A stretch of 64,000 nt of DNA from contig CADCVR010000102.1 of NCBI GenBank assembly GCA_902806205.1, positions 17,640-81,639 of the forward strand, written 5' to 3'. The stretch's first letter is position 1. Every line of letters begins with the position of its first letter. This DNA is from an uncultured Solirubrobacteraceae bacterium (GTDB taxonomy: Bacteria; Actinomycetota; Thermoleophilia; Solirubrobacterales; Solirubrobacteraceae). Made by a program: the position numbers and the translations under genes. Positions 48,784-63,835 of the stretch are shown piece by piece. A model generated the notes under the pieces. The model saw nothing but the letters and a program-made list of their open reading frames with translations, ran no database searches and had not been told where the DNA came from.

Positions 48784-50477
48784 TGCACGCCGTGAGCCAG
48801 CAGGGCGCCGGTCAGCTGCGGCGCATCGACTTCGATCCCGTGGCCCGGGTGGCAGGTGGCCTCGCTCTGCGCACGGTGGTCGACACCGAGCGTTTCGAGG
48901 TCGTCGAGGCCAGCATGCTGGCCACGATGTACCGCGGCTACGAGGTGCTCCTCCGTGGCCGCGACCCGCGCGACGCGGTCTTCGTCTCCAGCCGCGCGTG
49001 CGGCGTCTGCGGCGGTGCGCACGCATGGACGTCCGCGCTGGCGTGCGAGATGGCCTACGGCTCTGCCCCGCCCGCCATGGGCATCGTGGCGCGCAACTGG
49101 CTCTCGGCGCTCGAGGATCTCTGCGACCTGCCGCACCACCTCTTCCAGCGCGCCGGCCCGGACTTCTCCGAGCCGCTCGTGCGCCAGACCAGTCCCGAGC
49201 TGTGGGCGCGTGCGCAACAGACCCCGGCAGCCAACGTCGCGACGCACGGGTACGGCCTGGTGTCGGAGATCATGACGGCGATGACGCCGTTCAGGGGCGG
49301 CCTCTACCGCAGGGCGCTGGAGCTGACGCGCGTCGCCAAAGAGGCCTACGGGCTCGTGGGTGGCAAGCATCCGCACCCCCAGACGACCACGCCCGCCGGG
49401 GTCAGTGCGCTGATCGACCCCTCCGACCGGAACCTGACGTTGCTGCGGATCGACAAGTTCCTGGACTACAGTCGCGAGGTGGCGGCGGTCTGGGACGATC
49501 TCGCCGATTTCTTCCTCACGGCCGATCCCCGCTACGCCGACGTGGGCGCCGGGCCGAAGAACTTCTTCGATTTCGGCCGGTGGGACGACCCGTTCGCCTA
49601 CGATGCCACGTTCGAGAACGCCCCGGTCTGGGGTGAGCGGCGCTGGTCGACTCCCGGCGTGATCGTCGACGGGCGATTGCGGACCACGAATCTCCACCAG
49701 ATCGACGGCGGCGTCGAGGAGTTCGTCGACCGCTCCTTCTACGAGGACTGGAGTGCCGACGGGGGCGTCTACGCCACGGACCCGGCGGGCAACAACGTGT
49801 CCGCCCGCCATCCCTGGAACAAGGAGACACTCCCGCAGCCGGGCGGCCCCAACCTCAACGGGCAGTACTCGTGGTCGACCGCGCCGCGCTGGGACCGCCT
49901 CGCGATGGAGACCGGTGCCGGCGCGCGCATGTGGATCACCGCGATGGCGCGCAAGCAGCCTCACTCACGGTTTGTCGAGTCGACGGGCCACAGCCTCGTC
50001 ATGCACATGCCCCAGGCCGCGCTGCCGGAGGCGACGCTCGAGTGGCTGGTGCCCGAGCGCTGGAATGCGTTCGAGCGCAATCGGGCGCGGGCGTACTCGC
50101 TCGTCCATTCGACGCTCGTCGCCTACGAGAACGTCTTGATCGGCTACGACCTCGCCCGCATCGGGGGCCCCGACGCCCGGACCTTCACCGAGTACGAGAT
50201 CCCCAAGGGCGGCGTCGTCGGCGTGGGCTACTGGGGCGGCCCCCGCGGTGCCATCAGCCATCACATGGAGATCGACAACCGCGTGATCCGCAACTACCAG
50301 ATCCTCGCCGGCTCCACGTTCAACGCCTCGCCGATGGACCCGTTCGGCACTCCCGGACCGTGCGAGGCGGCGGTGATGGGCACGCCGCTTCTCAGTACGC
50401 GGCAGCCCGAGCGGTACCTCGACGCGATGCGTGCCGTCCGCAGCTTCGATCCCTGCATGTCCTGCGCGACGCACTGA
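48783..50477 (+). CDS. [NiFe]-hydrogenase large subunit, paralog 1, lacking C-terminal extension
   Basis: L1 RACGVCGGAH, GPRG canopy Arg, L2 FDPCMSCATH followed directly by TGA. Confidence 0.95.
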   Translation: MHAVSQQGAGQLRRIDFDPVARVAGGLALRTVVDTERFEVVEASMLATMYRGYEVLLRGRDPRDAVFVSSRACGVCGGAHAWTSALACEMAYGSAPPAMGIVARNWLSALEDLCDLPHHLFQRAGPDFSEPLVRQTSPELWARAQQTPAANVATHGYGLVSEIMTAMTPFRGGLYRRALELTRVAKEAYGLVGGKHPHPQTTTPAGVSALIDPSDRNLTLLRIDKFLDYSREVAAVWDDLADFFLTADPRYADVGAGPKNFFDFGRWDDPFAYDATFENAPVWGERRWSTPGVIVDGRLRTTNLHQIDGGVEEFVDRSFYEDWSADGGVYATDPAGNNVSARHPWNKETLPQPGGPNLNGQYSWSTAPRWDRLAMETGAGARMWITAMARKQPHSRFVESTGHSLVMHMPQAALPEATLEWLVPERWNAFERNRARAYSLVHSTLVAYENVLIGYDLARIGGPDARTFTEYEIPKGGVVGVGYWGGPRGAISHHMEIDNRVIRNYQILAGSTFNASPMDPFGTPGPCEAAVMGTPLLSTRQPERYLDAMRAVRSFDPCMSCATH

Positions 50478-51095: not shown

Positions 51096-51183
51096 CGTTC
51101 GAAATCCCCATCTGCGCGAGTGAGTGCGCGACCGCGGCGCTACCTTAAGTCTTGCGCCAAGTTCACAGCACCGGAAGGTCCTA

Positions 51184-51200
51184 TGTGTAGTATGCACACA
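51184..51200. promoter_or_regulatory. Candidate operator motif, copy 3 (TGTGTAGTATGCACACA)
   Basis: TGTGT-N7-ACACA palindrome 31 bp upstream of hydrogenase pair 2. Confidence 0.45.
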
Positions 51201-51231
51201 GCGCAGTCAACGCTGGGAGGAGAGCAAGTCT

Positions 51232-52581
51232 ATGGCCCCTGTTAGGGATGCCCGCGGGAACGAGATGCGTCTGCAGACGGTGCCGCACGGCGGCGGCGTC
51301 TTCGGAGCTAACCGACAGCCCGGTCTGGGCGGTCACGGAGGAAGCCCGAACGGACCGCTGAACGAGGTTCACGTCTTCTGGATCGCCGGCATGAGCTGCG
51401 ACGGCTGCACGATCGCCGCAAGCGGTGCCACCAACCCCTCGGTCGAGGACCTGCTGCTCGGCCGCATCCCCAACCTGCCGAAGGTGATCCTGCATCACCC
51501 CGTGCTCTCCCCGGGAGCCGGCACGGAGTTCATCCGGCCCTTCAAGCAGGCCGTCAACGGCGAGCTCGGAGCGCCCTACGTCGTGGTGCTGGAGGGCTCC
51601 GTCCCCGACGACCAGGCCTTCCCGTCCGACATCGGCTACTTCTCGGCGATGGGCGCGGGCGGCTTCGACCCCGAGTCCGAGACCGATCAGCCCAACCGCG
51701 TGACGGACTGGCTGTGGAAGCTCGCACCCGGAGCCGCCGCATACGTCGCCATCGGCACGTGCGCGACATGGGGCGGGATCCCGGCCGCCGCGGGCAACAT
51801 CACCGGCTCGATGAGCCTGACGGACTACTTGGGCCAGGACTACCGCTCCGCCCTGGGCGTGCCGGTCGTCAACGTTCCGGGCTGCGCACCCGTCGGCGAC
51901 AACTTCACCGAGACGGTCGCGGCCGTGCTCATGTTCCTGCAGAACCTCGCGCCGGTGCCGAAGTTCGACGAGTTGGGCCGTCCGGCGTGGCTCTTCGGCG
52001 AGACCGTGCACCGTCACTGCCCCAAGGCGGGCTACTATGAGGAGGGCGTCTTCGCCGAGGAGTTCGGCGACAACGAGTGCCTCGTGGAGATCGGCTGCTG
52101 GGGCCCGGTGGTGCAGTGCAACATCACCGAGCGCGGCGCGATCAACCACATGGGTGGCTGCATGGTCGCGGGTGGCCCCTGCATCGGCTGCACCATGCCC
52201 GGCTTCCCGGACAAGTACAGCCCGTTTCTGAAGGCGCCCCCAGGCTCCTCTATCTCCGGGGGGATCTCCAAGGTCACCGGTGGCGGGATCCGGCGCCTGC
52301 GTCGCCTGTCGATGAAGAAGGGCAACCGCACCGGAGTCTGGGACAACGCCCACGAGGTGCCGTCCGGCTGGGGCCGTGCGCACGGAGACAAGGGCCCGGT
52401 CGACAAGGCCAACGGGTTCTTCTACGAGAAGCTGCAGTACCGCGGCTCGGTCAACCACGCCAAGCGCAACAAGAGGCAGCCGCTGCCCCAGAGCCGCGAT
52501 ATCCTGAGACAGAAGGGCGTTGACCTCACCGCGAGCGTCGATGTACTTGGCGAACGGGTCAAGACCCGGGAGGAGCTGTAA
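51232..52581 (+). CDS. hylS: [NiFe]-hydrogenase small subunit, group 1l-type
   Basis: AGMSCDGC; full Cys/His set for three Fe-S clusters; GGGAGGAG RBS; no twin-Arg signal. Confidence 0.9.
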   Translation: MAPVRDARGNEMRLQTVPHGGGVFGANRQPGLGGHGGSPNGPLNEVHVFWIAGMSCDGCTIAASGATNPSVEDLLLGRIPNLPKVILHHPVLSPGAGTEFIRPFKQAVNGELGAPYVVVLEGSVPDDQAFPSDIGYFSAMGAGGFDPESETDQPNRVTDWLWKLAPGAAAYVAIGTCATWGGIPAAAGNITGSMSLTDYLGQDYRSALGVPVVNVPGCAPVGDNFTETVAAVLMFLQNLAPVPKFDELGRPAWLFGETVHRHCPKAGYYEEGVFAEEFGDNECLVEIGCWGPVVQCNITERGAINHMGGCMVAGGPCIGCTMPGFPDKYSPFLKAPPGSSISGGISKVTGGGIRRLRRLSMKKGNRTGVWDNAHEVPSGWGRAHGDKGPVDKANGFFYEKLQYRGSVNHAKRNKRQPLPQSRDILRQKGVDLTASVDVLGERVKTREEL

Positions 52582-52584
52582 ACC

Positions 52585-54504
52585 ATGTGCTTCAAGAATC
52601 TGCCGATCGAGTTCGATTCGCAGGGCAACGCGACGCTGAAGCAGGGCGTCGCAAACCCCTACACCTACACCGAGACGCCGGCGCCCACGCCCATCGAGGA
52701 CGATCCGGAGCGGATGCGGGAGCTGTTTGCGCGCAACGGTGCGATCCGGCGCGTCGACTTCGACCCGGTGACCCGCGTCGCGGGAGCGCTCGCCTTCCAC
52801 ACGGTGGTCGATCTCGACAGTCGTGAGGTGCTCGAGACCGCCTCGATGGCGACCCTGTTCCGTGGCTACGAGGTCATCCTCCAGGGCCGTGATCCGCGCG
52901 ATGCGATCAACATCTCCAGCCGGGCCTGCGGCGTGTGCGGCGGCGTGCACGCCACGACGTCCGCCCTGGCGTGCGAGATGGCCTTCGGCATCTCGCCGCC
53001 GCCGATGGGCGTCGTGGCGCGCAACCTGCTGCTCTCGACGGAGTACCTCTACGACCATCCGATCCACTTGTCGCTGCTCGCCGGTCCGGACTTCTCCGAG
53101 GAGGCGGTGCGCGAGACCAACCCGGAGATCTGGACGCGCGCCGAGAACACGCGCACTCAGGGCCGTGAGGTGCACGGCTATGAGTTCATGTCGGAGCTGA
53201 TGACCGACCTGACGCCGCTGACCGGCAAGCTGTACCTCGAGGGCCTGTACTACACGCGTCTCGCGCGCGAGGCGTACGTGCTCATCGGCGGCAAGTACCC
53301 TCACCCGCACACGGTCGTGCCCGGCGGCGTCAGCACGACGATCGACCCCTCCGACCTCAACGAGATCATGCTGCGGGTGGTCAAGTACTTCGACTACGGC
53401 CGCAAGACCGTGGCCATCTGGAACGACATCGCGGAGTTCTTCTACGACGTCAACCCGAAGTACAAGGACATCGGGACCCGTCCGAAGAACATGGTCGAGC
53501 CCGGCCAGTGGGACGATCCGTTCGCCTACGACGCCAGCTATGAGAACTGCGACGACTGGGGCCGCCGGCGCTGGGCGACCCCCGGCGTGCTCGTCGACGG
53601 AGAGCTCGTCACCACGAGCCTGCAGATGGTCAACGCGGGCGTCGAGGAGTTCGTCGAGCACGCCTTCTACGAGGAGTGGACCGGCAACGGCTCCGGCAAC
53701 GAGTACTACAAGTTCCCGACCGATCCGGCCGGCAACCCGTTGTCGCCGTACCACCCGTGGAACAAGGAGACGATCCCCAAGCCGACCGCGACCAGCTGGA
53801 AGGAGAAGTACTCCTGGTCGACGGCCCCTCGCTGGGATCGCATGGCGATGGAGACGGGGGCCTACTCGCGGATCTGGACGGCGGCGATGACGCCGAACTA
53901 CCGTCAGAGCAACTACATCGAGCCCACCGGGCACAGCCTCAAGATCCACCTGCCCAAGGCCTCGCTGCCCAACACCGAGATCGAGTGGAAGATTCCCGAG
54001 GTCTGGGGTGCCTTCGAGCGCAATCGCGCGCGCGCCTACTGCATCCTGTACACGGCGGCCATCGCGTACGACAACCTCCTGCTGGCCTACGACCTGCTGC
54101 GCAAGGGCGGGCCGGACGCCAAGATGTCGACGCCGTTCAAGGTGCCGAAGGATCACCGCATCGGCGTCGGGTTGTGGAGCGCCGGCCGCGGCTATCTGAC
54201 CCATCACATGGAGATCGACAAGGGCGTCATCAAGAACTACCAGATCCTGACCCCCTCGACGTGGATGGCGTCGCCGAAGGACCCCTTCGGCAACCCGGGG
54301 CCCTACGAGGAGGCGGTCATGGCCACGCCGCTGCTGGAGAACTACGAGAAGCCCGAGGACTTCAAGGGCATCGACGTGCTCCGGGCGATCCGCAGCTTCG
54401 ACCCGTGCATGCCGTGCACCACGCACATCCACTCCGACGACCGGACGATCACCCGCGAGATCATCAGCTGCGCATGCGGCGCGACCGGAGACCATGAGCA
54501 CTAG
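52585..54504 (+). CDS. hylL: [NiFe]-hydrogenase large subunit, group 1l-type, with 25-aa cleavable extension
   Basis: MCFKNLPIEFD N-terminus, L1 RACGVCGGVH, L2 FDPCMPCTTH plus IHSDDRTITREIISCACGATGDHEH. Confidence 0.9.
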   Translation: MCFKNLPIEFDSQGNATLKQGVANPYTYTETPAPTPIEDDPERMRELFARNGAIRRVDFDPVTRVAGALAFHTVVDLDSREVLETASMATLFRGYEVILQGRDPRDAINISSRACGVCGGVHATTSALACEMAFGISPPPMGVVARNLLLSTEYLYDHPIHLSLLAGPDFSEEAVRETNPEIWTRAENTRTQGREVHGYEFMSELMTDLTPLTGKLYLEGLYYTRLAREAYVLIGGKYPHPHTVVPGGVSTTIDPSDLNEIMLRVVKYFDYGRKTVAIWNDIAEFFYDVNPKYKDIGTRPKNMVEPGQWDDPFAYDASYENCDDWGRRRWATPGVLVDGELVTTSLQMVNAGVEEFVEHAFYEEWTGNGSGNEYYKFPTDPAGNPLSPYHPWNKETIPKPTATSWKEKYSWSTAPRWDRMAMETGAYSRIWTAAMTPNYRQSNYIEPTGHSLKIHLPKASLPNTEIEWKIPEVWGAFERNRARAYCILYTAAIAYDNLLLAYDLLRKGGPDAKMSTPFKVPKDHRIGVGLWSAGRGYLTHHMEIDKGVIKNYQILTPSTWMASPKDPFGNPGPYEEAVMATPLLENYEKPEDFKGIDVLRAIRSFDPCMPCTTHIHSDDRTITREIISCACGATGDHEH

Positions 54505-54543: not shown

Positions 54544-55017
54544 GTGCGCGTGCTCGTCTGCGGGGTCGGCTACCGGTTTCTGCGCGACGGGGCGCTCGGT
54601 CCCTACATGTCAGACACCCTGTCGGCGCGTGCCACCGAGCGGGTGGAGGTCGAGGACCTCGGCTACCACCCGGTCGGTTTCACGCAGAACTTGCAGGAGC
54701 GGCCGGACTACGATCGGATCGTGTTCGTGGCCGCGGTCGATCGCGGTCGCGCGCCCGGGACGATCAAGGCGTATCGCTATGATCATTGCCTGCCCTCCTC
54801 CAAAGAGGTCCAAGAGCGTGTCGGCGACTCCGTGACAGGTTCGATCTCGCTGGACAACCTGCTGATCGTCTCTGAGGCGTTCAAGGCGCTGCCCGACGAC
54901 GTCTGGGTCGTGGAGGTCGAGCCGGCCGACGAGACCTGGGGCGAGGGGTTCAGTCCCATCGTCGAGGCGAAGCTGCCGGAGATCACGGAGACCATATGGA
55001 ATTTGACCAAGCCGTAG
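54544..55017 (+). CDS. Hydrogenase maturation protease-like protein, degenerate metal site
   Basis: VLVCGVGYRFLRDGALG, IVFVAAVDRGRAPG, WGEGFSP; HybD/HycI-fold pattern with substitutions. Confidence 0.8.
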   Translation: MRVLVCGVGYRFLRDGALGPYMSDTLSARATERVEVEDLGYHPVGFTQNLQERPDYDRIVFVAAVDRGRAPGTIKAYRYDHCLPSSKEVQERVGDSVTGSISLDNLLIVSEAFKALPDDVWVVEVEPADETWGEGFSPIVEAKLPEITETIWNLTKP

Positions 55018-55943
55018 CTGAATTGGACACCCTCGTCGGGACCCTCGAACGGGAGGGCGACACGCGGGCGCTGATGCTGCTCGATCTGATGGACGCCGTG
55101 CACCGGCCCGCGCTCGAGCTGATCGTGGCCGGCGACTCCCGCCACCCCGTGGCGCACGCCCTGCTCTCCATGTACGACCTCGCGCCGCTCGACGAGTACG
55201 TGCAGGTCGAGGAGGCGCTCGACGAGATCCGCCCCTACATCGAGTCGCACGGCGGCGGCCTGGACCTGCTCGATGTCGAGGCGGACGAGGGCATCGTCCA
55301 CGTACGCCTGCACGGCTCGTGCCACGGATGCGCGGGCTCGGCGATCACCCTGCGGCGCGGCGTGGAGGAGAAGCTTCGCGAGCGTCTGGACTGGTTCACC
55401 GGGGTCGTCGCCCACGAGGACGACGACGCCGCCGAGACGGCGGAGGGACCGGAGGACGGCATCGCCGCCAAGCTGCTGAAGATCGAGCACTTCAACAGCG
55501 ACATCAAGGCTGCAGGACCCCTTTTGCCGAGTGCTCCCGTCGGCGCGGCCGGTCAGCCGGCCGACCCTTCCGGCGGCACCCTGCTGCAGATCGAGGGCAT
55601 CCGTCGAGAGAAGGTCGGCAGGCCGGTGTTCGTCGAGGCCGGCGCGCTCGCCGACCTGCCGCCGGGCGGGTCGAAGGCCGTCGACGTCGACGGGAACTCG
55701 ATCCTCATCATCAACGTCGACGGCGAGCCGTACGCGTTTCGGAACGTCTGCCCCGTCGACGGGCGGTCGGAGCTCTACGGCGGACACGTCACGGGCTCCG
55801 TCATCGTCTGTCCGTGGCACAACTGCGCCTACGACGCGCGCTCCGGCAAGCGCGTGGACGACCAGCCCCAGGAACCCGCGCTGGCGGTGGTGCCGATCGC
55901 GGTCCACGACGGCATGCTGCAGGTGGCGGCGAACGTCGCGTGA
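54996..55943 (+). CDS. NifU-like plus Rieske-like Fe-S protein (HhyE/HucE-like)
   Basis: IRPYIESHGG...GSCHGC NifU motif; CPV...CPWH Rieske-like motif. Confidence 0.85.
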   Translation: MEFDQAVAELDTLVGTLEREGDTRALMLLDLMDAVHRPALELIVAGDSRHPVAHALLSMYDLAPLDEYVQVEEALDEIRPYIESHGGGLDLLDVEADEGIVHVRLHGSCHGCAGSAITLRRGVEEKLRERLDWFTGVVAHEDDDAAETAEGPEDGIAAKLLKIEHFNSDIKAAGPLLPSAPVGAAGQPADPSGGTLLQIEGIRREKVGRPVFVEAGALADLPPGGSKAVDVDGNSILIINVDGEPYAFRNVCPVDGRSELYGGHVTGSVIVCPWHNCAYDARSGKRVDDQPQEPALAVVPIAVHDGMLQVAANVA

Positions 55944-56431
55944 GCACCGCGATCCCCTCCGAGGCGCCGGGCGTCCGCGCCCGGCGCGTGCTCGTCGCGG
56001 GCGTCGGGAACGTTCTTCGAGGCGACGACGGGTTCGGGCCGGCGGTGACCGAAATGCTCGGTGACCTCCCCGAGGGCGCAGACGTCGTGGAGACGGGGAT
56101 CGGTGGCATCGCCCTTCTGCAGGAGTTGATGCGGGGCTACGACGGCCTGATCCTGATCGACGCGGTCGAGCGTGGCGCCGACCCGGGAACCGTCTTTCTC
56201 ATAGAACCGGAGGTCGACATGGGTGTCCACGTCCCGGACATCCACCTCGCCAACCCGCACCGTGTGCTGTCGATGGCCAAGACAATGGGGGTGCTGCCCG
56301 CCCGGGTGGTGATCGTCGGCTGTCAGCCGCTGGACGTCGAGGAGATGTGCCAGGGGCTCTCCCCGCCGGTGCAGCGTGCTCTCGCCCCCGCCGTTACCAG
56401 GATTCAGGAGATCGTCGATGAATGGCTTTGA
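55940..56431 (+). CDS. Hydrogenase maturation endopeptidase (HybD/HupD family), intact
   Basis: GVGNVLRGDDGFG, LIDAV, DIHLANP. Confidence 0.92.
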   Translation: MSTAIPSEAPGVRARRVLVAGVGNVLRGDDGFGPAVTEMLGDLPEGADVVETGIGGIALLQELMRGYDGLILIDAVERGADPGTVFLIEPEVDMGVHVPDIHLANPHRVLSMAKTMGVLPARVVIVGCQPLDVEEMCQGLSPPVQRALAPAVTRIQEIVDEWL

Positions 56432-57311
56432 CTCAATCGCGGAGATGCGCCAAGCGCTCGCCGGGCAGCGCTACCTGGCCGACGAGGGCCTGGCGACCGT
56501 GGCGTTTCTCGCCTTGCGGCTTCGACGCCCTCTGCTCGTGGAAGGTGAGCCCGGCGTCGGGAAGACCGAGCTTGCGAAGGCCCTTGCGGCGGCCACCGGC
56601 GCACCGCTCATCCGCCTGCAGTGCTATGAGGGGATCGATGTCCACCAGGCGCTGTACGACTGGGACTACCCCCGGCAGCTGCTGCAGTTGCGCGCGGGGG
56701 GATCCGCGCCGCTGTACTCCGAGGAGTTCATGCTCCGCAGGCCGCTGCTCGAGGCGCTCGCCTCCGATCCGGCGCGCCCCGCCGTGCTGCTGATCGACGA
56801 GCTCGATCGCGCCGACGACGAGTTCGAAGCGTTCCTGCTCGAGTTCCTGTCCGACTTTCAGGTGACGATCCCCGAGCTCGGAGTCATCAAGGCCGCGGCG
56901 CCGCCGACCGTGATCATCACGTCGAACCGCACCCGCGACCTGCATGAGGCACTCAAGCGCCGCTGCCTGTACCACTGGATCGACCACCCCGACCTCGCTC
57001 GAGAGGTGGCGATCGCCCGCGCTCGCCTGCCCCACATCAGCGAGCGCCTCACCACCCAGGTGTGCAGCTTCGTCCATGAGCTGCGGTTCCTGGACCTCTA
57101 CCGCTCACCCGGGGTGGGCGAGACCCTCGACTGGGCCGAGGCCTTCCACGTCCTGGGGCGCCAGCAGATGGACGCTTCCACGGCCGACCGGACGCTCGGC
57201 ACGCTGCTCAAGGAGCGCGACGACATCGAGCGCATCCGTGGCAAGCCGGTGGAGGCGCTGATCGACCGCGCCAATGGCGTCCCGAAGGATGGAGCCAGCG
57301 GTGACCATTAA
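56418..57311 (+). CDS. MoxR-family AAA+ ATPase (CoxD-like)
   Basis: GEPGVGKT, RLQCYEG, LLIDELDRAD, TSNRTRDLHEALKRRC. Confidence 0.93.
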   Translation: MNGFDSIAEMRQALAGQRYLADEGLATVAFLALRLRRPLLVEGEPGVGKTELAKALAAATGAPLIRLQCYEGIDVHQALYDWDYPRQLLQLRAGGSAPLYSEEFMLRRPLLEALASDPARPAVLLIDELDRADDEFEAFLLEFLSDFQVTIPELGVIKAAAPPTVIITSNRTRDLHEALKRRCLYHWIDHPDLAREVAIARARLPHISERLTTQVCSFVHELRFLDLYRSPGVGETLDWAEAFHVLGRQQMDASTADRTLGTLLKERDDIERIRGKPVEALIDRANGVPKDGASGDH

Positions 57312-58587
57312 ATCTGACCAGCTCGGCCCGCCGTCCGGCCAGCCCGTCCTCGCCGCTGCAGTAGGGCTCGCGCGCGTGCTGCGCACCTTCGGGATGTCGG
57401 CGAGCGTGGACAGCGAGCACGTCTTCATGCGCGCACTCGCAGAGATCGACGTGCGAGAGCGCGACGCCGTCTACTGGGCCGCCCACGCCGCGTTCGTGCA
57501 CGGTCCCGATGAGCGCCCCGTGTTCGACGTCGTCTTCGAGCGCTTCTGGGAGGGCCGGGCGCTGATCCTCGAGGAGCGCGGTGCCGAGCACGGCGAGGAC
57601 GACGCGCGCATGAGCGGTTCTCACCACGGTGGCGAGTCACTGCCGCAGTTCGGCGCCGAGGGGGAACAGGCGTCTCCTCTGGACGGCGACAACAACCGCG
57701 CCACGCGCGAGATCCCCAGCCCTGACGGCAACGAGGGCAAGAGCAACCAGGAGATCGGCGTCCTGGCCGCCTGGAGTGCCCAGGACACGGCGAGCGAGGA
57801 AGAGCGGCTGAAGTACCAGGCCGACGAGCTCGCGGCGCTCCGTCAGCTGGCTCACGAGATCAAGCGTGCCGCACCCGAGCGGCGCTCCCGGCGATGCAAG
57901 CCGGCGCCCGGCGGGGACCGGCTTGACGTCCGCGGGACCCTGCGCGGCTCGCTGGCGACCGACGGCGAAGCGTTCCGGCTGTCGTTCACCGCGCCGACGC
58001 TCCGTCCGAGACGGCTGCTGTTCCTCTGTGACGTCTCGGGGTCGATGGAGCGCTACTCGCGCGTCCTGCTCGCCTCGCTGAAGGCGGCGGTCGGCGCGAC
58101 GCGGAAGGCGGAGGCCTTCGTCTTCGCCACGCGCCTGACGCGACTGACCCGGTCGCTCGATGGTCATGACCTGGAGCGCGCGCTCGATCATGCACGCGCC
58201 GCGATCCCCGACTGGTCGGGGGGCACGCGGATCGGGGCGGCGCTCGAGGAGTTCAACCACAGCTACGGTCGTCGCGGGTTCGCACGCGGCGCGATCGTCA
58301 TCGTGGTCAGCGACGGCTGGGATCGAGGCGACCCCGAGATCCTGGCCACCGAGGTTCGCCGGCTGCAGCTTCAGGCCCGGCAGCTGGTCTGGATCAACCC
58401 CCGCCCCATGACCGTCGATCAGCAGCCGCTCGCGATCGGCATGCGCGCGGCGATGCCGTACGTCGACGAGTTCGTCGCCGGACACGATCCGAGGGCCATC
58501 GCCGGGCTTGCCCGGTTGATCGGCGGTCTCGGCGCCGACCGCCCGCAGCGCGCGGTGGTTCCACGCGCTGCTCCAACCGTCGCCTGA
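57301..58587 (+). CDS. VWA-domain protein (CoxE-like)
   Basis: DVRGTLR, CDVSGSMERY MIDAS, FATRLT, WSGGTRIG, VSDGWD, WINP. Confidence 0.92.
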   Translation: MTIKSDQLGPPSGQPVLAAAVGLARVLRTFGMSASVDSEHVFMRALAEIDVRERDAVYWAAHAAFVHGPDERPVFDVVFERFWEGRALILEERGAEHGEDDARMSGSHHGGESLPQFGAEGEQASPLDGDNNRATREIPSPDGNEGKSNQEIGVLAAWSAQDTASEEERLKYQADELAALRQLAHEIKRAAPERRSRRCKPAPGGDRLDVRGTLRGSLATDGEAFRLSFTAPTLRPRRLLFLCDVSGSMERYSRVLLASLKAAVGATRKAEAFVFATRLTRLTRSLDGHDLERALDHARAAIPDWSGGTRIGAALEEFNHSYGRRGFARGAIVIVVSDGWDRGDPEILATEVRRLQLQARQLVWINPRPMTVDQQPLAIGMRAAMPYVDEFVAGHDPRAIAGLARLIGGLGADRPQRAVVPRAAPTVA

Positions 58588-58595: not shown

Positions 58596-58632
58596 GTCGC
58601 CTGACGCTCGCTTCGAGCGGGCGTCAGGCGAC
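58596..58632. terminator. 17-bp stem hairpin between convergent genes, overlapping a 17-bp tandem duplication (58573-58606)
   Basis: GTCGCCTGACGCTCGCT-TCG-AGCGGGCGTCAGGCGAC. Confidence 0.65.
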
Positions 58633-58701
58633 GCGGCTTCGTCGGGCTCGACGCTCCCGGGCTGCTTTCCGGGCACTACCGGTGTAGCGCCCGGAACGCG
58701 C

Positions 58702-59139
58702 TCAGCGCTGTCGCAGCGGCTCGCCCGTGCGCTCGGCGCCCGCGTTGCGGGCCACAGAGAGCAGGCCGAGTCCCAGCGCCGCGGAGCCCGAGACCAGGTG
58801 CAGCACGTTGTCCAATTCGCCGGCGCCGTTCATCGAGATGATCTGGAGGCTGTTCGCGAATCCGAGGAACGTCGCCAGGAGGTAGACCAGGCCACCACCG
58901 ATCAGCGCTCCTTCCGTTACCGGCCGGCTGACCTGCGAGACGATGATGAGGTAGATGCCGATCGCCAGGTGCACCACGTTGTGGAACGGGTTGATCGCGA
59001 AGCCCAACAGCGCATCGTCGGTGTTCTGCACGAAGTTGCCGAATCCCGTGATGAAGAACCCGATCACACCCGCTGCCGCGTAGACGGCCCCCACCACGAG
59101 TGCTCCGGCCTGCGCGAAGCCCTTGTTGCTCAGATCCAT
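58702..59139 (-). CDS. DUF4383-like 4-TM membrane protein
   Basis: FAINPFHNVVHLAIG and DNVLHLVSG motifs. Confidence 0.82.
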   Translation of the reverse strand: MDLSNKGFAQAGALVVGAVYAAAGVIGFFITGFGNFVQNTDDALLGFAINPFHNVVHLAIGIYLIIVSQVSRPVTEGALIGGGLVYLLATFLGFANSLQIISMNGAGELDNVLHLVSGSAALGLGLLSVARNAGAERTGEPLRQR

Positions 59140-59248
59140 ACTTGAATTCTCCCCCGCTAGGTGTCTCGAACACCTTACTGCGTCCACCCACCGGGAGGGA
59201 GAAAATCGAACGGCGCGGTTTCCACGGCGGTCTCGCACGCGTGCGGCA

Positions 59249-59279
59249 GTCGTGCCGCGACTGTCGTGCCGCGACTGTC
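59249..59279. repeat. 14-bp tandem repeat x2.2 (GTCGTGCCGCGACT) in divergent promoter region
   Basis: Direct inspection. Confidence 0.75.
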
Positions 59280-59493
59280 CCTCCGCCTTGTCGCAGGCTC
59301 CCACGCGGGTTGAAGACGTCGGCCGCGAGGGGCCGGCGGGACACGCGGCCGTCCGCGATCCGACCGCGGTGGCAGCGGGTCGGCCGTTGCGCCGGGCTCG
59401 TCCGGCCGCAATCCGTCAGCTTCAGCGGGAAACCCCGGTTTTCGGCGCCTTCGCCCGCCCCGAAGGGGTCAGGAGCGACAGGTCGGCGCGATA

Positions 59494-59510
59494 GGTGTTG
59501 CAAACACACA
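59494..59510. promoter_or_regulatory. Candidate operator motif, copy 4 (GGTGTTGCAAACACACA)
   Basis: GTG-N9-CAC, 23 bp upstream of the small TM gene array. Confidence 0.4.
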
Positions 59511-59533
59511 GTCGTTGTGTCAGGCTCGCTCCA

Positions 59534-59821
59534 ATGAGAGCCCTTGCCGTGCAGAGCGTCGAATCACAGTCTTATACGGGGTGGTGGACCGGCTTGATCA
59601 TCGGCTTCGTCGTCGTCTGGGTCGTCGTCATCCTCGTCGGCACCATCCTGATGTACGCGTCGCGCATCGCCGACCAGGCCAAGGAGGGGATCGCGCGAAT
59701 GGATGAGGCCCGCGCCACCACGCTCCCGATCTGGGAGCTGCAGGACCTCAACGTCGCTGCGACGGGTATTTGGAAGGCGGTCGAGTCCACTCGGCCCGTA
59801 CTCGAGGAGAAGATCAGATGA
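59534..59821 (+). CDS. Small single-TM coiled-coil protein A (HylTM-like)
   Basis: One TM helix followed by amphipathic helix; ATGA coupling to next gene. Confidence 0.75.
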   Translation: MRALAVQSVESQSYTGWWTGLIIGFVVVWVVVILVGTILMYASRIADQAKEGIARMDEARATTLPIWELQDLNVAATGIWKAVESTRPVLEEKIR

Positions 59822-60108
59822 CGGTGCTTGCTCTGACCGAGGACGAACGGGTCTTCTGGTACATAGCCCTGGGCATGGGGCTCGTAGTGATCCTGGTGGT
59901 CATCGTGCTCCTGTCCCTGCTGATCTCGCTCGTGCGGGACATCGACGAGGGAGTGGTCACGCTCTGGACGGTGACCAAGCGCCTGGCGACCAACACCACC
60001 GGCGCGTACCAGCTCGCCGGCACGGCCTCGATCCTGCGCGCGTTGCGCGAGGAGTGCCTGCGCCAGGACAAGATGCTCACCGAGCGCAACGGGATGGCAA
60101 GACGATGA
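59818..60108 (+). CDS. Small single-TM coiled-coil protein B (HylTM-like)
   Basis: WYIALGMGLVVILVVIVLL...VRDIDEGV...KRLATNT. Confidence 0.8.
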   Translation: MTVLALTEDERVFWYIALGMGLVVILVVIVLLSLLISLVRDIDEGVVTLWTVTKRLATNTTGAYQLAGTASILRALREECLRQDKMLTERNGMARR

Positions 60109-60377
60109 GCAAGACACTGCTGACGGTCCTCACCGTCGTCGAGATCGTGGCGCTCGTGGCCATCCTCGCGGCCTACTTGCTCGTCGTCGCCAAGCAACTT
60201 CGCTCGATCTCTTCGACGCTGGCCGAGGTCGCATGGGGAGCCCGCGCCGTCGAGCGTCAGTTGCGGGCGGTCCGCTCCAACGTCGGGCAGATCAACGCAG
60301 CGTTGGGAGACGTCGCCGGCGCCCTGCCGGGCGTCATCGACAAGGTCGAAGACCTCAACCGAGGAGCGCGCGTCTGA
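60105..60377 (+). CDS. Small single-TM coiled-coil protein C (HylTM-like)
   Basis: VAILAAYLLVVAKQLRSISSTL...INAAL. Confidence 0.8.
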   Translation: MSKTLLTVLTVVEIVALVAILAAYLLVVAKQLRSISSTLAEVAWGARAVERQLRAVRSNVGQINAALGDVAGALPGVIDKVEDLNRGARV

Positions 60378-60625
60378 TGACCCTTTGGTGGATCGGCAAC
60401 ATCATCTTCCTCGTCGTCGTGATCCCGGTGGTGGCCGTGATCCTCGGCCAGGTCTTCGCCCCCGTCAAGCAGATCGGGGTCTACGCCGACGACATCGCCG
60501 TGCACGGGGCCCTCTTCGGCCCCCACCTTGACGCGTTGCAAGAGCTCGGGACGACCCGCGAGCTCGTGCGCAGGATTTCCCCCGAGCTCGAACGCTACGT
60601 TCGAGCGCTCGACCAGATTCGCTAG
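60377..60625 (+). CDS. Small single-TM coiled-coil protein D (HylTM-like)
   Basis: LWWIGNIIFLVVVIPVV...IGVYADDI; TGATG coupling. Confidence 0.8.
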   Translation: MTLWWIGNIIFLVVVIPVVAVILGQVFAPVKQIGVYADDIAVHGALFGPHLDALQELGTTRELVRRISPELERYVRALDQIR

Positions 60626-60634
60626 GAGACATTC

Positions 60635-61027
60635 ATGAGTGCAGCCCCCGTCGTCACGCTCATCGGTGTAGCGCTCACCGTGGTAGTGATCGCGCTCTAT
60701 TTGATCGGGATCGCGTTGATCCTGAAGCGCGTGCACGCCCGCCTGGTGACCATTCTGGGTGCCGTCGTCGAGGTCAGCGAGAAGTCCGCCCCGGCAGGAG
60801 ACGTGATCGCCGGGATCAACGCTGACCTTGCCCGCGGGCATTCAGCCGTCGGTGCCGCTGTCGAGCGCCTCCAAGAGCGTGTCGCGGCCGACGACGACTT
60901 GAATCGAGGCGGAGACCCGCTGCCCGCCGCGCGCGGCGGCAGCGTGGCAGCCCCGCCGCCCGGCGGCCGCGGCGGCAGCGTGGCAGCCCCGCCGCCCGCC
61001 GACCGCGGCGGATGGTGGCAGCGCTGA
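60635..61027 (+). CDS. Single-TM coiled-coil protein E (HylTM-like) with duplicated RGGSVAAPPP tail
   Basis: VIALYLIGIALILKRV...INADL; 36-bp unit at 60932 and 60968. Confidence 0.8.
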   Translation: MSAAPVVTLIGVALTVVVIALYLIGIALILKRVHARLVTILGAVVEVSEKSAPAGDVIAGINADLARGHSAVGAAVERLQERVAADDDLNRGGDPLPAARGGSVAAPPPGGRGGSVAAPPPADRGGWWQR

Positions 61028-61142
61028 GTTTGTAGCGTCCCGGCGCACAGAAGGTGGTCGGCGCTGAGCGAGACCTCCCGGGGCCCCGCCGCTTTCCGGC
61101 GGGGAAGCGGGCAGGTGAGCAGCCGACCGGTGCATGGTCGGT

Positions 61143-61193
61143 GGGTCACCCGGGCGACACCCGCTTGGGGTCACCCGGGCGACACCCGCTTGG
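61143..61193. repeat. Perfect 25-bp tandem duplication (GGGTCACCCGGGCGACACCCGCTTG x2)
   Basis: Direct inspection. Confidence 0.8.
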
Positions 61194-61439
61194 CGAGCGT
61201 CGCTCGACCCCCGCAGCGTCTCGTCATGCATAGGCCGGCGAGGTGAAGCGCGCACCCCCGGCGACCGCGAGCCAGGTCGAGTCGAGGTGGCCGCACACAC
61301 TGCCTGATCCTGCACGCGCCGTTTTCAGCTCCTATCGATTCCGACCGTCAGACAGCCGGCACCCTAGGCGCCAAGCGGCGTGCGCCCTCAAACCGCGCTC
61401 ACATCAACCTACGAGAAGCGCCGTTTTCACGGCTGCTGG

Positions 61440-61781
61440 GGGTTGCAGCGGGCGGTTGCGAGGACGTTGAGCGCGGCACCGAGGGGGAGGTGGTCGCCGC
61501 CGTTGGCCGAACTGGCGTGAGCGTGATGTTTGGTGGACCAACGGGGTACACAGATGCCGTCGACACCTCGACGTGGGTGGTCGCTGAGCTCGATACGTGG
61601 CGCACGGTCGGTGCGGTCGTCGAGCGCGTCGCTTCTGAGGCTCAGCGCCAGACCGATTTGCTCGAAGACCTTCGGCGGCTCGGGATCGATGAGATTTCGC
61701 ATCGCAAGGGGCAGCGCTAACCTGACTGTCGCCGTCGATCACAACACCGGCCGCCTGGTTCGGGCGGCGGCTGGCCGCGAC
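61440..61781 (+). pseudogene. ISL3-family transposase remnant
   Basis: WRTVGAVVERV...LGIDEISHRKGQR*, then shifted LTVAVDHNTGRLV...GRD; TAC changed to TAAC creates stop and frameshift. Confidence 0.85.
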
Positions 61782-61954
61782 CCCGCCGGGCATTCCCGGA
61801 CTTCCCAACTCCTCCTGCCGACAGTCAATCACCCACGACTGCGCCGTCGCGGACGCCCTGGAGACGCTCAGCAGTCCCGCGCCATCCACTCCGCGGGAGG
61901 GCGAGACCAATCGACTGCCACGCCCGGGTTATTCCGGGCGCGTCCCACCGCCCG

Positions 61955-62653
61955 CTATCCGCCGCTCTCGAACGTCGACACGATCCGGTCGAACACTGGG
62001 AGGTACTTCTCCAGGCGCCGCGCGGGGAGCGTCTGAAACACCATGGTGATCAGCCGGCCTTCCTTGAAGAGGAAGTAGTGGACGTGACCTCCGGGCTCGC
62101 CGGTCGCCGTGTCGAAGGTGTAGTCGTAGCGGTAGCCCGGCAGCCCGGCCAGGACGAGCGCGCGGGGCTGGTTCATCAGACGGACCCGCCCGTCGGCGCG
62201 GACCAGGCGGTCGGTGAGGTCGCGAACGATCGACAGCGTCTCCCGAGTGACCTCCAGGCCGACGGGCGTCACGCGGACGAGCATGGACACGGCTCGTCCT
62301 TCGGCGACGATCAGTTCGACCTGCGGGTCGTCCGAGGGCACGCGCGACCAGGACCTGGGGTAGGCGATCGAGAAGGGCACCTCGGCATTGCGACTGCGGA
62401 AGCGTACGTAGCCCGCGGGATCGGGTTCGGCCTGGGCTTTCGGCGGCGAGGCCGCGGTGGTCGACGGCGCGGCGGCGGGGCCAGACGCCTGCGGCGCGGG
62501 CGACGACACGACAGCTCGGCCGACGGCCGCCGCTGCGATCAGGACCACGACGCCGGCAGCGATCACCAGCATCAAGGGGGACCGCGTCGCGCGGGCGAAG
62601 GTCGTGCGCAGGCTGCGGCCCGGTGAGGGGTCCGGAGGGCCGGAAGCGCTCAT
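61955..62653 (-). CDS. Membrane-anchored protein with PsbP/DcrB-like extracellular domain
   Basis: TM, Pro/Ala linker, FSIAYPRSW, LAGLPGYRYDY, FDRIVSTF. Confidence 0.65.
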   Translation of the reverse strand: MSASGPPDPSPGRSLRTTFARATRSPLMLVIAAGVVVLIAAAAVGRAVVSSPAPQASGPAAAPSTTAASPPKAQAEPDPAGYVRFRSRNAEVPFSIAYPRSWSRVPSDDPQVELIVAEGRAVSMLVRVTPVGLEVTRETLSIVRDLTDRLVRADGRVRLMNQPRALVLAGLPGYRYDYTFDTATGEPGGHVHYFLFKEGRLITMVFQTLPARRLEKYLPVFDRIVSTFESGG

Positions 62654-63078
62654 GGGGCGGGGTGGTCAGGCGCTCCGGAAGGGTTCCGATCTACGACGGG
62701 CTCATGCGGAGGCTCTTGCGGAGGAGGTGCGATCGGCGTCTCGAGTGACGTCTCGCGAACGGCGTGTGCCCCGAGTTGGAGGTCCTTCAGCGATGCGAGC
62801 AGTCCGCGCGTCGTATCGGGTTCACGCCCTGTCGGGTGGGCCTCGAGGAGCTGTGTCGCCTTCAACTGAAGGTCCTTGAGGAACGAGACGAGCATCGTCA
62901 TCAGCCCCATGAGCAGGAGCAGGACCACCGCCCCGAATACGAGCGCTACGGTCGCGACCGTGTTGGTCTCGACGAGGGCGACGGTCGCGATCCCGCCGCC
63001 GATCAGAACGACGACGGCGATCGCGACCACGCCGAGGGACCGGCGAACACGCCGGTCCCTCAGTGCGGCCGCGAGCAC
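62650..63078 (-). CDS. 2-TM membrane protein with repeated LKDLQL segment
   Basis: Two hydrophobic helices; SFLKDLQLKA and ASLKDLQLGA; ATGA coupling. Confidence 0.65.
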   Translation of the reverse strand: MLAAALRDRRVRRSLGVVAIAVVVLIGGGIATVALVETNTVATVALVFGAVVLLLLMGLMTMLVSFLKDLQLKATQLLEAHPTGREPDTTRGLLASLKDLQLGAHAVRETSLETPIAPPPQEPPHEPVVDRNPSGAPDHPAP

Positions 63079-63082
63079 AGTC

Positions 63083-63835
63083 TCACCGGTTACAGCTCCG
63101 CGTGCGACCGAGGAGGTTCAGCAGTCGGCTGCAGTCGATCGAGTTCGCGTGCCCGTTGATGGTGTTCGGACCCGTGCCCCCGACCAGATCGAGCACCGTG
63201 GACAGATCGCTTCCGATGGGCCTAGCGATGTCCTGGACGTCCTCCGCCCGGCGGTTGATGCCGGCCACCTCGGGCTCGATCTGGTTCACGTCAGCGAGGA
63301 TCGTGCTGGCGTTGCCACGGATTCCCCTGGCGCTCGCGTTGATCGAGTCGGTGAGGGAGTTGATCGACCGCGCGCTCGCGTTGATCGACCGAGCGTTGCC
63401 GCCGATCGCGAGCACGGACGTGTTGATGGCCGCTGCGCTCGATCCGATCCCGTTGACCGTGGTGTTGATGGGAGTGACGTTCCCGTTGATCGTGGTCGCG
63501 GTCTGGTTGATCGTGGTCGCCGTGCGCAGGATCGTCTTCGCGATCCTGTCGATGTCCTTGGCGGCCGCGAGGGTGTCTGACAGCTGCCCGGTCAACGGCA
63601 TCGCCGCCCGCTTGATCTGACCCGAGATCACGGCCGTCCGTGCCGCGAGCGCGATCGCCTCGGTGTCCGTGCCGATGTCGTTGACCTCGGGCTTGATGAT
63701 CGCCACGCTGTCATCGATCTGGTTGGCGGCGACGAGCGTGCCCGTCAGCATCAACACAGCGGCCAGGGCCCACACGACGATCAGGATCAGGATCGCGGGC
63801 GCGAGCCCGCGGGTTCCCCTGAGAATGCTCAGCAT
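63083..63835 (-). CDS. TM-anchored long Ile/Asn heptad coiled-coil protein with terminal Cys pair
   Basis: About 15 heptads (e.g. INQTATT INGNVTP INTTVNG...); IDC...SC at C-terminus; AAGGGG RBS. Confidence 0.8.
   Translation of the reverse strand: MLSILRGTRGLAPAILILIVVWALAAVLMLTGTLVAANQIDDSVAIIKPEVNDIGTDTEAIALAARTAVISGQIKRAAMPLTGQLSDTLAAAKDIDRIAKTILRTATTINQTATTINGNVTPINTTVNGIGSSAAAINTSVLAIGGNARSINASARSINSLTDSINASARGIRGNASTILADVNQIEPEVAGINRRAEDVQDIARPIGSDLSTVLDLVGGTGPNTINGHANSIDCSRLLNLLGRTRSCNR

What the first reader, a model, noticed from the sequence alone, without database searches (positions are those of the whole stretch)
59534..61027. Five coupled single-TM coiled-coil microproteins: candidate heteromeric membrane stalk
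Seen: five 82-130-aa genes (four joined by ATGA/TGATG overlaps, implying fixed stoichiometry), each with one TM helix then heptads. Known: five small TM genes (HylTM) were reported with group 1l, function untested; group 2a Huc uses a membrane-attached coiled-coil stalk (HucM) to move menaquinone. Inference: a heteropentameric quinone conduit or anchor for a hydrogenase with no cytochrome b.
Basis: partly seen in the sequence, partly recalled or inferred. Interest (0 to 1): 0.65.

Follow-up and report, generated by a model that had tools for sequence, protein, structure and literature searches.

The report
Detached HylTM membrane-stalk genes of hydrogenase
The five tiny membrane-protein genes are real. 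They belong to the published but never tested HylTM1-5 set of air-scavenging group 1l hydrogenases, here moved out of the enzyme operon. The same five-gene kit also sits in carbon-monoxide dehydrogenase clusters, so it is probably a shared membrane dock for trace-gas enzymes.

Summary
Five translationally coupled genes (95, 96, 90, 82 and 130 aa) each encode an N-terminal transmembrane helix followed by a heptad-periodic cytoplasmic helix.

They are not new in kind. They match, position for position, the five single-pass ORFs that lie between HylS and HylL in other Actinomycetota and in Acidobacteriota. That arrangement is the published definition of HylTM1-5. A 2026 paper already models HylTM1-5 as a membrane scaffold.

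- **Neighbouring enzymes.** Both tandem hydrogenases in the window show the group 1l marks: a 4-Cys proximal-cluster motif and a C-terminal HylS extension.
- **Co-occurrence.** In an even sample of 401 Actinomycetota genomes, all 21 genomes with a 1l-type large subunit carry the family, against 12 of 380 others.
- **What differs here.** The set is detached, about 5 kb downstream of HylL, behind MoxR/VWA genes and a reverse-strand DUF4383 gene.
- **A second set.** A paralogous set lies next to uvrA and falls in a CO-dehydrogenase-type clade.
- **Link to CO dehydrogenase.** Most named loci of the family (52-54 of 80) lie inside coxMSL/coxG clusters. I found no publication describing this.

Best reading: a heteromeric membrane anchor or stalk for the hydrogenase. 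A quinone-conduit role is untested.

The parts
59534..59821 (+). g1, HylTM1-type (class A): 95 aa with an N-terminal TM helix then a cytoplasmic helix
   Evidence: ORF and TM helix. Family HMM E=2.6e-36. Best blastp hit is TM1 of an HylS-TM1-5-HylL locus (3.7e-11).
59818..60108 (+). g2, HylTM2-type (class A): 96 aa with the conserved WTVxxRxAxNT motif. ATGA overlap with g1.
   Evidence: It lacks the C-terminal tri-Cys motif that the g2-type members of L137 and L143 carry.
60105..60377 (+). g3, HylTM3-type (class B): 90 aa. ATGA overlap with g2.
   Evidence: AF2 model is a single helix, residues 2-88, pLDDT 84. Best blastp hit is TM3 (1.3e-12).
60377..60625 (+). g4, HylTM4-type (class A): 82 aa starting with the invariant MTLWWIGN. 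One-nt TGATG overlap with g3.
   Evidence: AF2 model is a single helix, residues 3-81, pLDDT 76.
60635..61027 (+). g5, HylTM5-type (class B): 130 aa with a variable Gly/Pro/Ala-rich tail that holds an 11-aa direct repeat
   Evidence: AGGAG lies 8-12 nt upstream of the start.
51124..52581 (+). HylS2, small subunit of the second group 1l-type [NiFe]-hydrogenase. The true start is probably the ATG near 51232.
   Evidence: Pfam. It has a C-D-G-C proximal-cluster motif and about 75-80 aa beyond the end of the 5AA5 small subunit.
52585..54504 (+). HylL2, large subunit (639 aa)
   Evidence: Pfam. Nearest solved structure is the 1h enzyme 5AA5. It is 40% identical to the genome's own 1h large subunit and 55-72% identical to other 1l-type large subunits.
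47485..50477 (+). HylS1 and HylL1, a first tandem 1l-type hydrogenase. HylL1 is 57% identical to HylL2.
   Evidence: HylS1 has the C-D-G-C motif and the same conserved C-terminal extension.
54544..56431 (+). HycI-like protease, the NifU-Rieske protein HylE (54996-55943) and the HupD protease
   Evidence: Pfam.
56376..58587 (+). MoxR-type AAA+ ATPase and a VWA (CoxE-like) protein
   Evidence: Pfam, VWA_CoxE 2e-54. They are conserved between HylL and the five-gene set in Thermoleophilia loci.
58702..59304 (-). DUF4383 membrane protein on the opposite strand. It separates the five-gene set from the hydrogenase operon.
   Evidence: Pfam 5.7e-17. It is a recurrent neighbour of the set in relatives.
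61955..63835 (-). Three membrane-anchored neighbours: a PsbP-like protein (61955-62653), p142 (62650-63078) and p250 (63083-63835). The N-terminal parts of p142 and p250 weakly resemble class A.
   Evidence: p142 scores E=3.9e-4 against the g2 model and p250 scores E=2.1e-5 against the g4 model.

Best explanation

**Proposed mechanism.** The five proteins are made in fixed proportion. This is inferred from the ATGA/TGATG coupling. Each inserts N-out/C-in by one TM helix. This is inferred from the positive-inside rule. Their long heptad-periodic cytoplasmic helices then pack into a heteromeric coiled-coil stalk.

**Composition of the stalk.** It holds two paralogue classes in the order A-A-B-A-B. 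The genes also behave as two sub-modules, g1-g2-g3 and g4-g5.

**Role of the stalk.** The stalk holds the cytosolic (HylLS)2 enzyme at the membrane. Contact is probably through the conserved C-terminal extension that both HylS proteins of this window carry. The NifU-Rieske protein HylE may also take part. This would bring the distal FeS cluster close to the menaquinone pool in an enzyme that has no cytochrome b.

**Shown versus inferred.** Shown here are gene reality, family membership, strict co-occurrence with 1l enzymes, enzyme-specific clades and helical architecture. Physical assembly, the docking surface and any part in quinone access are inferred.
For: 1. **Homology to the published arrangement.** HylS-TM1-5-HylL loci were found in Actinomycetota (L098, L099, L104) and in Acidobacteriota (L137, L143). 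Their five ORFs map to g1..g5 in order. L137 and L143 carry a C-terminal CPGCPxC tri-Cys motif, as the paper describes for one HylTM.
2. **Co-occurrence.** All 21 of 21 genomes with a 1l-type large subunit have a g4-family hit, against 12 of 380 others (Fisher p=7e-27) and 4 of 41 1h-only genomes. In the Acidobacteriota sample, 5 of 5 1l-type loci have a set beside them.
3. **Independent layouts keep the genes near the enzyme.** The sets lie downstream, divergent from HylS, convergent with HylL, interposed, or split. In 7 of about 9 split loci g4-g5 sit directly beside HylE.
4. **Enzyme-specific clades.** In the tree of the five concatenated proteins the window set falls in a hydrogenase clade (SH-aLRT support 100). 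Context labels cluster far more than in shuffles.
5. **Architecture.** There is one TM helix per protein. K+R is near 0 on the N side and about 2 just after the TM. Periodicity is 3.4-3.5. AF2 monomers are single long helices.
6. **Enzyme features.** There is no hydrogenase cytochrome b in the genome. Both HylS proteins have the 1l extension, which includes a conserved FYxKLQY stretch.
7. **Published model.** An AlphaFold model of the Hymenobacter enzyme shows the same idea (PMC13554262).
Against: - No experiment exists for any member of the family.
- No multimer model could be run here, so assembly and docking are not shown.
- In this window the set is a separate transcription unit. It lies 5 kb from HylL, behind a reverse-strand gene.
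- The genome has a second set far from any hydrogenase.
- The family is more often linked to CO dehydrogenase than to hydrogenase among the named loci, so its function cannot rest on a hydrogenase-specific contact alone.
- No Cys or His is conserved, so the proteins cannot relay electrons themselves.
- Direct comparison with the Hymenobacter roseosalivarius HylTM sequences was not possible.
Confidence: 0.62

Rival explanations
1. The stalk is a quinone conduit, working like HucM. The five helices would enclose a hydrophobic channel or chamber that lifts menaquinone out of the membrane to the distal FeS cluster of HylS. This adds a further function to anchoring; it does not replace it.
For: - The enzyme lacks a cytochrome b.
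- In CO dehydrogenase clusters the set lies directly after coxG, the protein shown to extract menaquinone (PMC12202499; gene order).
- The published model speaks of 'tube-like' structures.
Against: - No structural or sequence evidence for a channel was obtained, because monomer models are single helices.
- The soluble helices are amphipathic with ordinary heptad character.
- No similarity to any Pfam family was found, at a reporting limit of E<=1.
- CO dehydrogenase clusters that carry the set also keep CoxG, so the set does not replace the quinone extractor there.
Confidence: 0.2
2. The proteins are an assembly or maturation platform that works with the MoxR AAA+/VWA pair (like CoxD/CoxE). 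They would form a membrane site where the chaperone pair finishes or loads the metalloenzyme, and would not be a permanent subunit.
For: - MoxR and VWA_CoxE genes lie between the hydrogenase genes and the set in this window and in its Thermoleophilia relatives.
- coxD and coxE accompany the set in CO dehydrogenase clusters.
Against: - Of 20 1l-type loci from other families, only one has MoxR/VWA nearby, while 16 have the TM set.
- The five Acidobacteriota loci with a set beside the hydrogenase gave no MoxR or VWA hit.
- Most form-I CoxL genomes must have coxD/E but lack the set.
Confidence: 0.1
3. These are general envelope or stress membrane proteins (DUF948-like) that happen to lie near the hydrogenase, with no functional tie to it.
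For: - The set is a separate transcription unit.
- A second set lies beside uvrA.
- The recurrent neighbours are other membrane proteins: DUF4383, a PsbP-like protein and p250.
- g3 has weak DUF948 hits.
Against: - All 21 of 21 genomes with 1l enzymes carry the family, and it is almost absent elsewhere.
- Adjacency holds in several independent layouts and in two phyla.
- Clades follow the partner enzyme.
- DUF948 scores are far below the cut-off, and only 5 of 55 members hit at all.
Confidence: 0.05

Closest known systems
HylTM1-5 of group 1l [NiFe]-hydrogenase clusters (Ortiz et al., bioRxiv 10.1101/2020.08.06.239558; AlphaFold scaffold model in PMC13554262)
   Same: - There are five small single-pass TM proteins of low mutual identity (18-33% here).
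- They are tied to 1l-type HylS and HylL.
- They are collinear, one-to-one homologues of the five ORFs in HylS-TM1-5-HylL loci of two phyla.
- The predicted role is the same: a membrane anchor.
   Different: - The set is not between HylS and HylL. It is a detached unit about 5 kb downstream, behind MoxR/VWA and a reverse-strand DUF4383 gene.
- No tri-cysteine motif is present.
- One set sits beside two tandem 1l enzymes.
- Homology to the Hymenobacter proteins themselves could not be checked.
Five-gene TM sets in actinobacterial Mo-Cu CO dehydrogenase clusters (coxMSL-coxG-g4-g5-g1-g2-g3, or g1..g5-coxMSL). I found no publication on them; earlier AI notes of this scan mention them.
   Same: They belong to the same five families with the same A-A-B-A-B make-up, the same TM-plus-long-helix build and the same translational coupling. 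This genome's second set (contig C58) belongs to this clade.
   Different: - The partner enzyme is unrelated (molybdenum-copper CODH with CoxG).
- The gene order is often circularly permuted.
- g5 is much longer in the Thermoleophilia type.
- They form separate clades from the hydrogenase-linked sets.
HucM stalk of the group 2a hydrogenase Huc (M. smegmatis; structures 7UTD and 7UUS appear among the large-subunit hits). Its role is stated from my own knowledge.
   Same: It works alike in concept: a helical, membrane-associated stalk that couples a cytosolic high-affinity hydrogenase without cytochrome b to menaquinone.
   Different: - The window proteins gave no Pfam match that reaches a cut-off, and no direct comparison with HucM was made.
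- HucM is one protein forming a homo-oligomer, not five different N-terminally anchored proteins.
- It serves a different hydrogenase group.
- A lipid or quinone chamber is shown for HucM and is only conjecture here.
CoxG, the menaquinone-extracting partner of Mo-CODH (PMC12202499)
   Same: It is a membrane-tethered accessory that links a soluble trace-gas enzyme to the quinone pool. It is the immediate gene neighbour of the set in CO dehydrogenase clusters.
   Different: It has an SRPBCC lipid-binding fold with a C-terminal anchor and is unrelated in sequence. It is absent from the hydrogenase locus of this window.

Membership tests
HylTM1-5 (group 1l hydrogenase-associated single-pass proteins) | Five small ORFs, each with one predicted TM helix | tested here: met
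   The proteins are 95, 96, 90, 82 and 130 aa, with one hydrophobic segment each.
HylTM1-5 (group 1l hydrogenase-associated single-pass proteins) | Low identity among the five (12-30% in the paper) | tested here: met
   Pairwise identity is 18-33%. Profile comparison gives two classes, {g1,g2,g4} and {g3,g5}.
HylTM1-5 (group 1l hydrogenase-associated single-pass proteins) | Genes lie between the HylS and HylL genes | tested here: not met
   In the window HylS2 and HylL2 are adjacent (52581/52585) and the set starts 5 kb after HylL2. The interposed layout exists in L098, L099, L104, L137 and L143, with ORFs homologous to g1..g5 in order.
HylTM1-5 (group 1l hydrogenase-associated single-pass proteins) | Genetic association with a group 1l enzyme | tested here: met
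   All 21 of 21 Actinomycetota genomes with a 1l-type large subunit have the family, against 12 of 380 without. In Acidobacteriota, 5 of 5 1l-type loci do.
HylTM1-5 (group 1l hydrogenase-associated single-pass proteins) | C-terminal tri-cysteine motif in one member | tested here: not met
   No such motif occurs in g1-g5; g2 has a single Cys. The motif CPGCPxC is present in the g2-type ORF of L137 and L143.
HylTM1-5 (group 1l hydrogenase-associated single-pass proteins) | Sequence homology to the H. roseosalivarius type proteins | not testable with these tools
   No route to that genome or its proteins was open. The group 1l part of Table S7 is cut off in the stored copy.
Group 1l [NiFe]-hydrogenase (the neighbouring enzymes) | Proximal FeS cluster with four Cys, where 1h has an Asp | tested here: met
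   HylS1 and HylS2 read C-D-G-C. The 1h reference 5AA5 and the genome's own 1h small subunit (contig C79) read C-D-G-D.
Group 1l [NiFe]-hydrogenase (the neighbouring enzymes) | C-terminal extension of HylS relative to 1h (the paper says about 100 aa) | tested here: met
   The alignment to 5AA5 ends at residue 408 of the 485-aa HylS2 ORF, leaving about 75-80 extra residues. The C79 small subunit (357 aa) has none.
Group 1l [NiFe]-hydrogenase (the neighbouring enzymes) | Separate clade from 1h, with less than about 40% large-subunit identity | tested here: inconclusive
   Identities are bimodal: 53-72% to 1l-type and 39-46% to 1h-type large subunits. No tree with named reference sequences was built.
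DUF948 (PF06103) | Score above the Pfam gathering cut-off (37.2 bits) | tested here: not met
   g3 scores 16.7 bits. Only 5 of 55 g3-family members hit at E<=0.01.

The most novel reading that the evidence does not exclude
The five-protein set is a universal, exchangeable 'trace-gas coupling module'. It would be a heteromeric membrane stalk, built from an ancestral A-B-A-B set that expanded to A-A-B-A-B. Evolution has plugged it into two unrelated atmospheric-gas oxidoreductases, each with its own co-evolved version: the group 1l [NiFe]-hydrogenase and the Mo-Cu CO dehydrogenase with CoxG.

On this reading the genome runs two such stalks. One lies beside its two tandem Hyl enzymes. The other is encoded in trans beside uvrA and serves its CO dehydrogenase on another contig. 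The g4-g5 pair would contact the electron or quinone hand-over protein, which is HylE in one system and CoxG in the other.
Probability: 0.4. Interest if true: 0.8.

Novelty: new member of a known kind. Interest (0 to 1): 0.5.

Why it matters
How high-affinity, cytochrome-b-less enzymes that live on atmospheric H2 and CO pass electrons to the respiratory chain is only solved for Huc (HucM) and for mycobacterial CO dehydrogenase (CoxG). Group 1l is reported as the dominant hydrogenase in Antarctic desert soils, and its coupling is known only as a prediction.

This window shows three things:
- The predicted HylTM anchor can be encoded apart from the enzyme genes.
- One Hyl-type set can accompany two tandem enzymes.
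- The same protein kit is kept by certain CO dehydrogenase clades.

This offers a single, testable candidate for the missing membrane link of two major trace-gas sinks. It also points to culturable carriers, such as Pseudonocardia, Amycolatopsis and Rhizocola, in which the set could be deleted.

Tried and rejected
- **Pfam scans.** Scans of all five proteins and of 55 g3 homologues gave nothing above a cut-off. The weak DUF948, T4SS_pilin and Baculo_PEP_C hits were rejected as TM or coiled-coil noise.
- **Locus search.** The first related-loci run with nine g4 sequences failed because no stretch was conserved enough. A tighter alignment worked, but it samples only loci that carry MTLWWIGN, so its context counts are biased. 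Even genome samples were used to correct for this.
- **Hymenobacter HylTM sequences.** They could not be reached. The group 1l rows of Table S7 are cut off in the stored copy. HylS-TM1-5-HylL loci from two phyla served as stand-ins.
- **Promoter and terminator scan of 58500-62000.** It gave nothing above chance.
- **Fold search of the monomer models.** It was not run, because single long helices give meaningless matches.
- **No multimer prediction is available.** The hetero-oligomer is therefore not tested.
- **Spurious-ORF reading.** Rejected on codon bias and on conservation across two phyla.
- **Idea that the uvrA-linked set serves the second hydrogenase.** Rejected in favour of a CO dehydrogenase partner, because that set lies inside the CODH-type clade and the genome's cox cluster on contig C28 has no set of its own.
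Full report

g1/g2 and g2/g3 overlap as ATGA. g3/g4 overlap by one base (TGATG). g5 follows after 9 nt with an AGGAG site.

Third-position GC is 0.81-0.90 and second-position GC is 0.35-0.55 in a window of 71% GC. Each product has one strongly hydrophobic N-terminal segment.

In profiles of 81 homologues per family, K+R is about 0 before the TM helix and about 2 in the 15 residues after it. By the positive-inside rule this puts the C-terminal part in the cytoplasm. The hydrophobic periodicity of that part peaks at 3.40-3.50 in all five families.

AlphaFold2 monomers built on alignments give a single unbroken helix. g3 spans residues 2-88 (pLDDT 84) and g4 spans 3-81 (pLDDT 76). The 'one TM helix then heptads' description therefore holds.

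**2. What stands around the set?**

Upstream on the same strand lie two tandem [NiFe]-hydrogenases: HylS1/HylL1 (47485-50477) and HylS2/HylL2 (51124-54504). After them come a HycI-like protease, a NifU-Rieske protein, HupD, a MoxR AAA+ ATPase and a VWA_CoxE protein. A DUF4383 gene on the opposite strand (58702-59304) then separates this operon from the five genes.

The genome has a third large subunit on contig C79. The C79 small subunit reads C-D-G-D at the proximal-cluster motif, like the 1h structure 5AA5, and has no C-terminal extension. Its large subunit has the 1h motif RICGICGDNH.

Both window small subunits read C-D-G-C and run about 75-80 residues past the end of 5AA5. These are the two sequence marks given for group 1l in Ortiz et al., Supplementary Note 1. 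HylL2 is 40% identical to the C79 large subunit and 53-72% identical to a distinct set of large subunits in other genomes. No hydrogenase cytochrome b is found in the genome.

**3. Are the five genes HylTM?**

The paper defines HylTM1-5 as five single-pass ORFs between HylS and HylL. [quoted passage not shown] I could not reach the Hymenobacter sequences.

I therefore searched an even sample of 401 Actinomycetota genomes with HylL2 and fetched the 1l-type loci. L098, L099 and L104 have exactly the published layout. Their five ORFs are assigned by family HMMs to g1, g2, g3, g4 and g5 in that order.

A sample of 301 Acidobacteriota genomes gave two more such loci, L137 and L143. There the second ORF ends in CPGCPxC. 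It also gave three loci with four-gene A-B-A-B sets.

By blastp, the best hits of window g1-g4 among the ten TM ORFs of one actinobacterial set (Act_TM1-4 from L099, Act_TM5 from L104) and the L137 set are TM1-TM4, position for position. g5 is assigned by HMM only.

The window set therefore belongs to the HylTM family. Two published features are not met here: the interposed position and the tri-Cys motif.

**4. How tight is the link to the enzyme?**

- In the Actinomycetota sample, all 21 genomes with a 1l-type large subunit have a g4-family hit, against 12 of 380 others (Fisher p=7e-27).
- Of 41 genomes with only 1h-type large subunits, four have a hit, and three of those hits are linked to CO dehydrogenase.
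- Sixteen of 20 fetched 1l loci have family genes within 9 kb.
- The layouts differ. The set can be co-directional downstream behind MoxR/VWA (this window, L007, L017-L028), divergent from HylS (L008, L014), convergent with HylL (L018) or interposed.
- It can also be split, with g1-g2-g3 next to HylS and g4-g5 directly beside the NifU-Rieske gene (L105, L107, L109, L110, L125, L133, L134).

Adjacency kept across such rearrangements argues for function with the enzyme.

**5. The module is not hydrogenase-only.**

The genome holds a second collinear set on contig C58, directly after uvrA. Relatives place the set immediately upstream of coxMSL (L011-L013).

A scan of species genomes for MTLWWIGN gave 80 named loci, 79 labelled Actinomycetota and one (L043, a 2-kb contig) labelled Thermoanaerobaculia. 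Of these, 52-54 lie in CO dehydrogenase clusters with coxG, coxD-like MoxR and coxE-like VWA genes. Another 8-11 lie beside hydrogenase genes. The rest are of other or unknown context, often on short contigs.

In Actinomycetes and Acidimicrobiia the order is coxL-coxG-g4-g5-g1-g2-g3. This is a circular permutation at the same g3|g4 junction where the hydrogenase sets split.

Only two CoxL clades carry the set, roughly 10 of about 85 form-I-like CoxL genomes in the sample.

A tree of the five concatenated proteins separates hydrogenase-linked from CODH-linked sets. The window set lies in a hydrogenase clade (SH-aLRT support 100). The C58 set lies inside the Thermoleophilia CODH clade (support 99). 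This genome's cox cluster on contig C28 has no set of its own. The C58 set is therefore probably its partner, encoded in trans. That last step is an inference.

I found no paper describing TM sets in cox clusters. 'HylTM' occurs in two works only (three held copies), and the CoxG paper does not mention such genes. Earlier AI notes of this scan reach the same view. I treated them as leads and reached the cox link before reading them.

**6. Internal structure of the set.**

Profile-profile comparison gives two paralogue classes: A = {g1, g2, g4} (probability 96-98%) and B = {g3, g5} (97.6%). Cross-class probabilities are 9-87%, highest for g1-g5 (87%) and g1-g3 (76%). The set is therefore A-A-B-A-B, and the four-gene Acidobacteriota sets are A-B-A-B.

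No Cys or His is conserved, apart from one His in g2. The proteins are therefore unlikely to carry a redox cofactor in this lineage.

**7. Mechanism and rivals.**

The best-supported reading is a heteromeric membrane anchor or stalk for the cytosolic Hyl enzyme(s), as the published AlphaFold model proposes.

- A quinone-conduit function is possible but untested.
- A MoxR/VWA-linked assembly role is weakened, because most 1l loci with the set lack those genes.
- A generic envelope role is hard to square with the strict co-occurrence.

Assembly, docking surface and topology remain inferences.

**8. Verdict.**

The thing itself is a member of a published but functionally untested family, in a detached layout.

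The added value lies in four points: the detached arrangement, the two tandem 1l enzymes with one Hyl-type set, the second CODH-type set in trans, and the sharing of the module between two unrelated trace-gas enzymes.

Noticed in passing
window 47485-54504: Two group 1l-type hydrogenases stand in tandem. HylL1 is 57% identical to HylL2 and lacks the N-terminal stretch of about 50 aa (MCFKNLPIEFD...) that other 1l large subunits conserve. A third, 1h-type enzyme lies on contig C79.
   Followed up: partly
own genome, contig C58:66862-68244 (outside the window): A second collinear five-gene set lies directly downstream of uvrA. It clusters with CO-dehydrogenase-linked sets, whereas the genome's cox cluster (C28:25300-33198) has no set beside it.
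   Followed up: yes
window 61955-63835 (- strand), continuing past the window end: A PsbP-like membrane-anchored protein, a 142-aa protein and a 250-aa single-TM helical protein with repeated 'IN' segments flank the set. A paralogue of the 250-aa protein lies at C102:82395-82985. The same neighbours, together with DUF4383, recur beside the set in relatives, including CODH-linked ones (L010, L016, L119, L120, L131). The N-terminal parts of p142 and p250 weakly match class A profiles.
   Followed up: partly
window 60900-61010 (g5 C-terminus): An 11-residue direct repeat, RGGSVAAPPP(G/A), lies in a Gly/Pro/Ala-rich tail. g5 tails vary greatly in length among homologues, from 75 to about 240 aa.
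   Followed up: no
L105, L107, L109, L110, L125, L133, L134: In split layouts the g4-g5 pair sits directly beside, and in the same direction as, the NifU-Rieske (HylE) gene. In cox clusters the same pair directly follows coxG. This hints that g4-g5 contact the electron or quinone hand-over protein.
   Followed up: partly
L137 and L143 (Acidobacteriota); L098 and L099 (Actinomycetota): The C-terminal tri-Cys motif CPGCPxC lies in the second ORF (g2 type) of the interposed sets in Acidobacteriota. It is reduced to a single Cys in the actinobacterial sets. The paper assigns the motif to 'HylTM4', so the numbering or the carrier may differ.
   Followed up: no
L141 and L142 (Acidobacteriota): Two large-subunit-like genes stand in tandem behind one small subunit. 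They are 40-45% identical to HylL2, and no TM set is nearby. This may be a further hydrogenase subtype.
   Followed up: no
L007, L008 and L024: ParA/CbiA-like ATPase genes, a PadR regulator and a DUF1059 gene recur near these hydrogenase loci, as the legend of Ortiz et al. Fig. S5 also lists.
   Followed up: no
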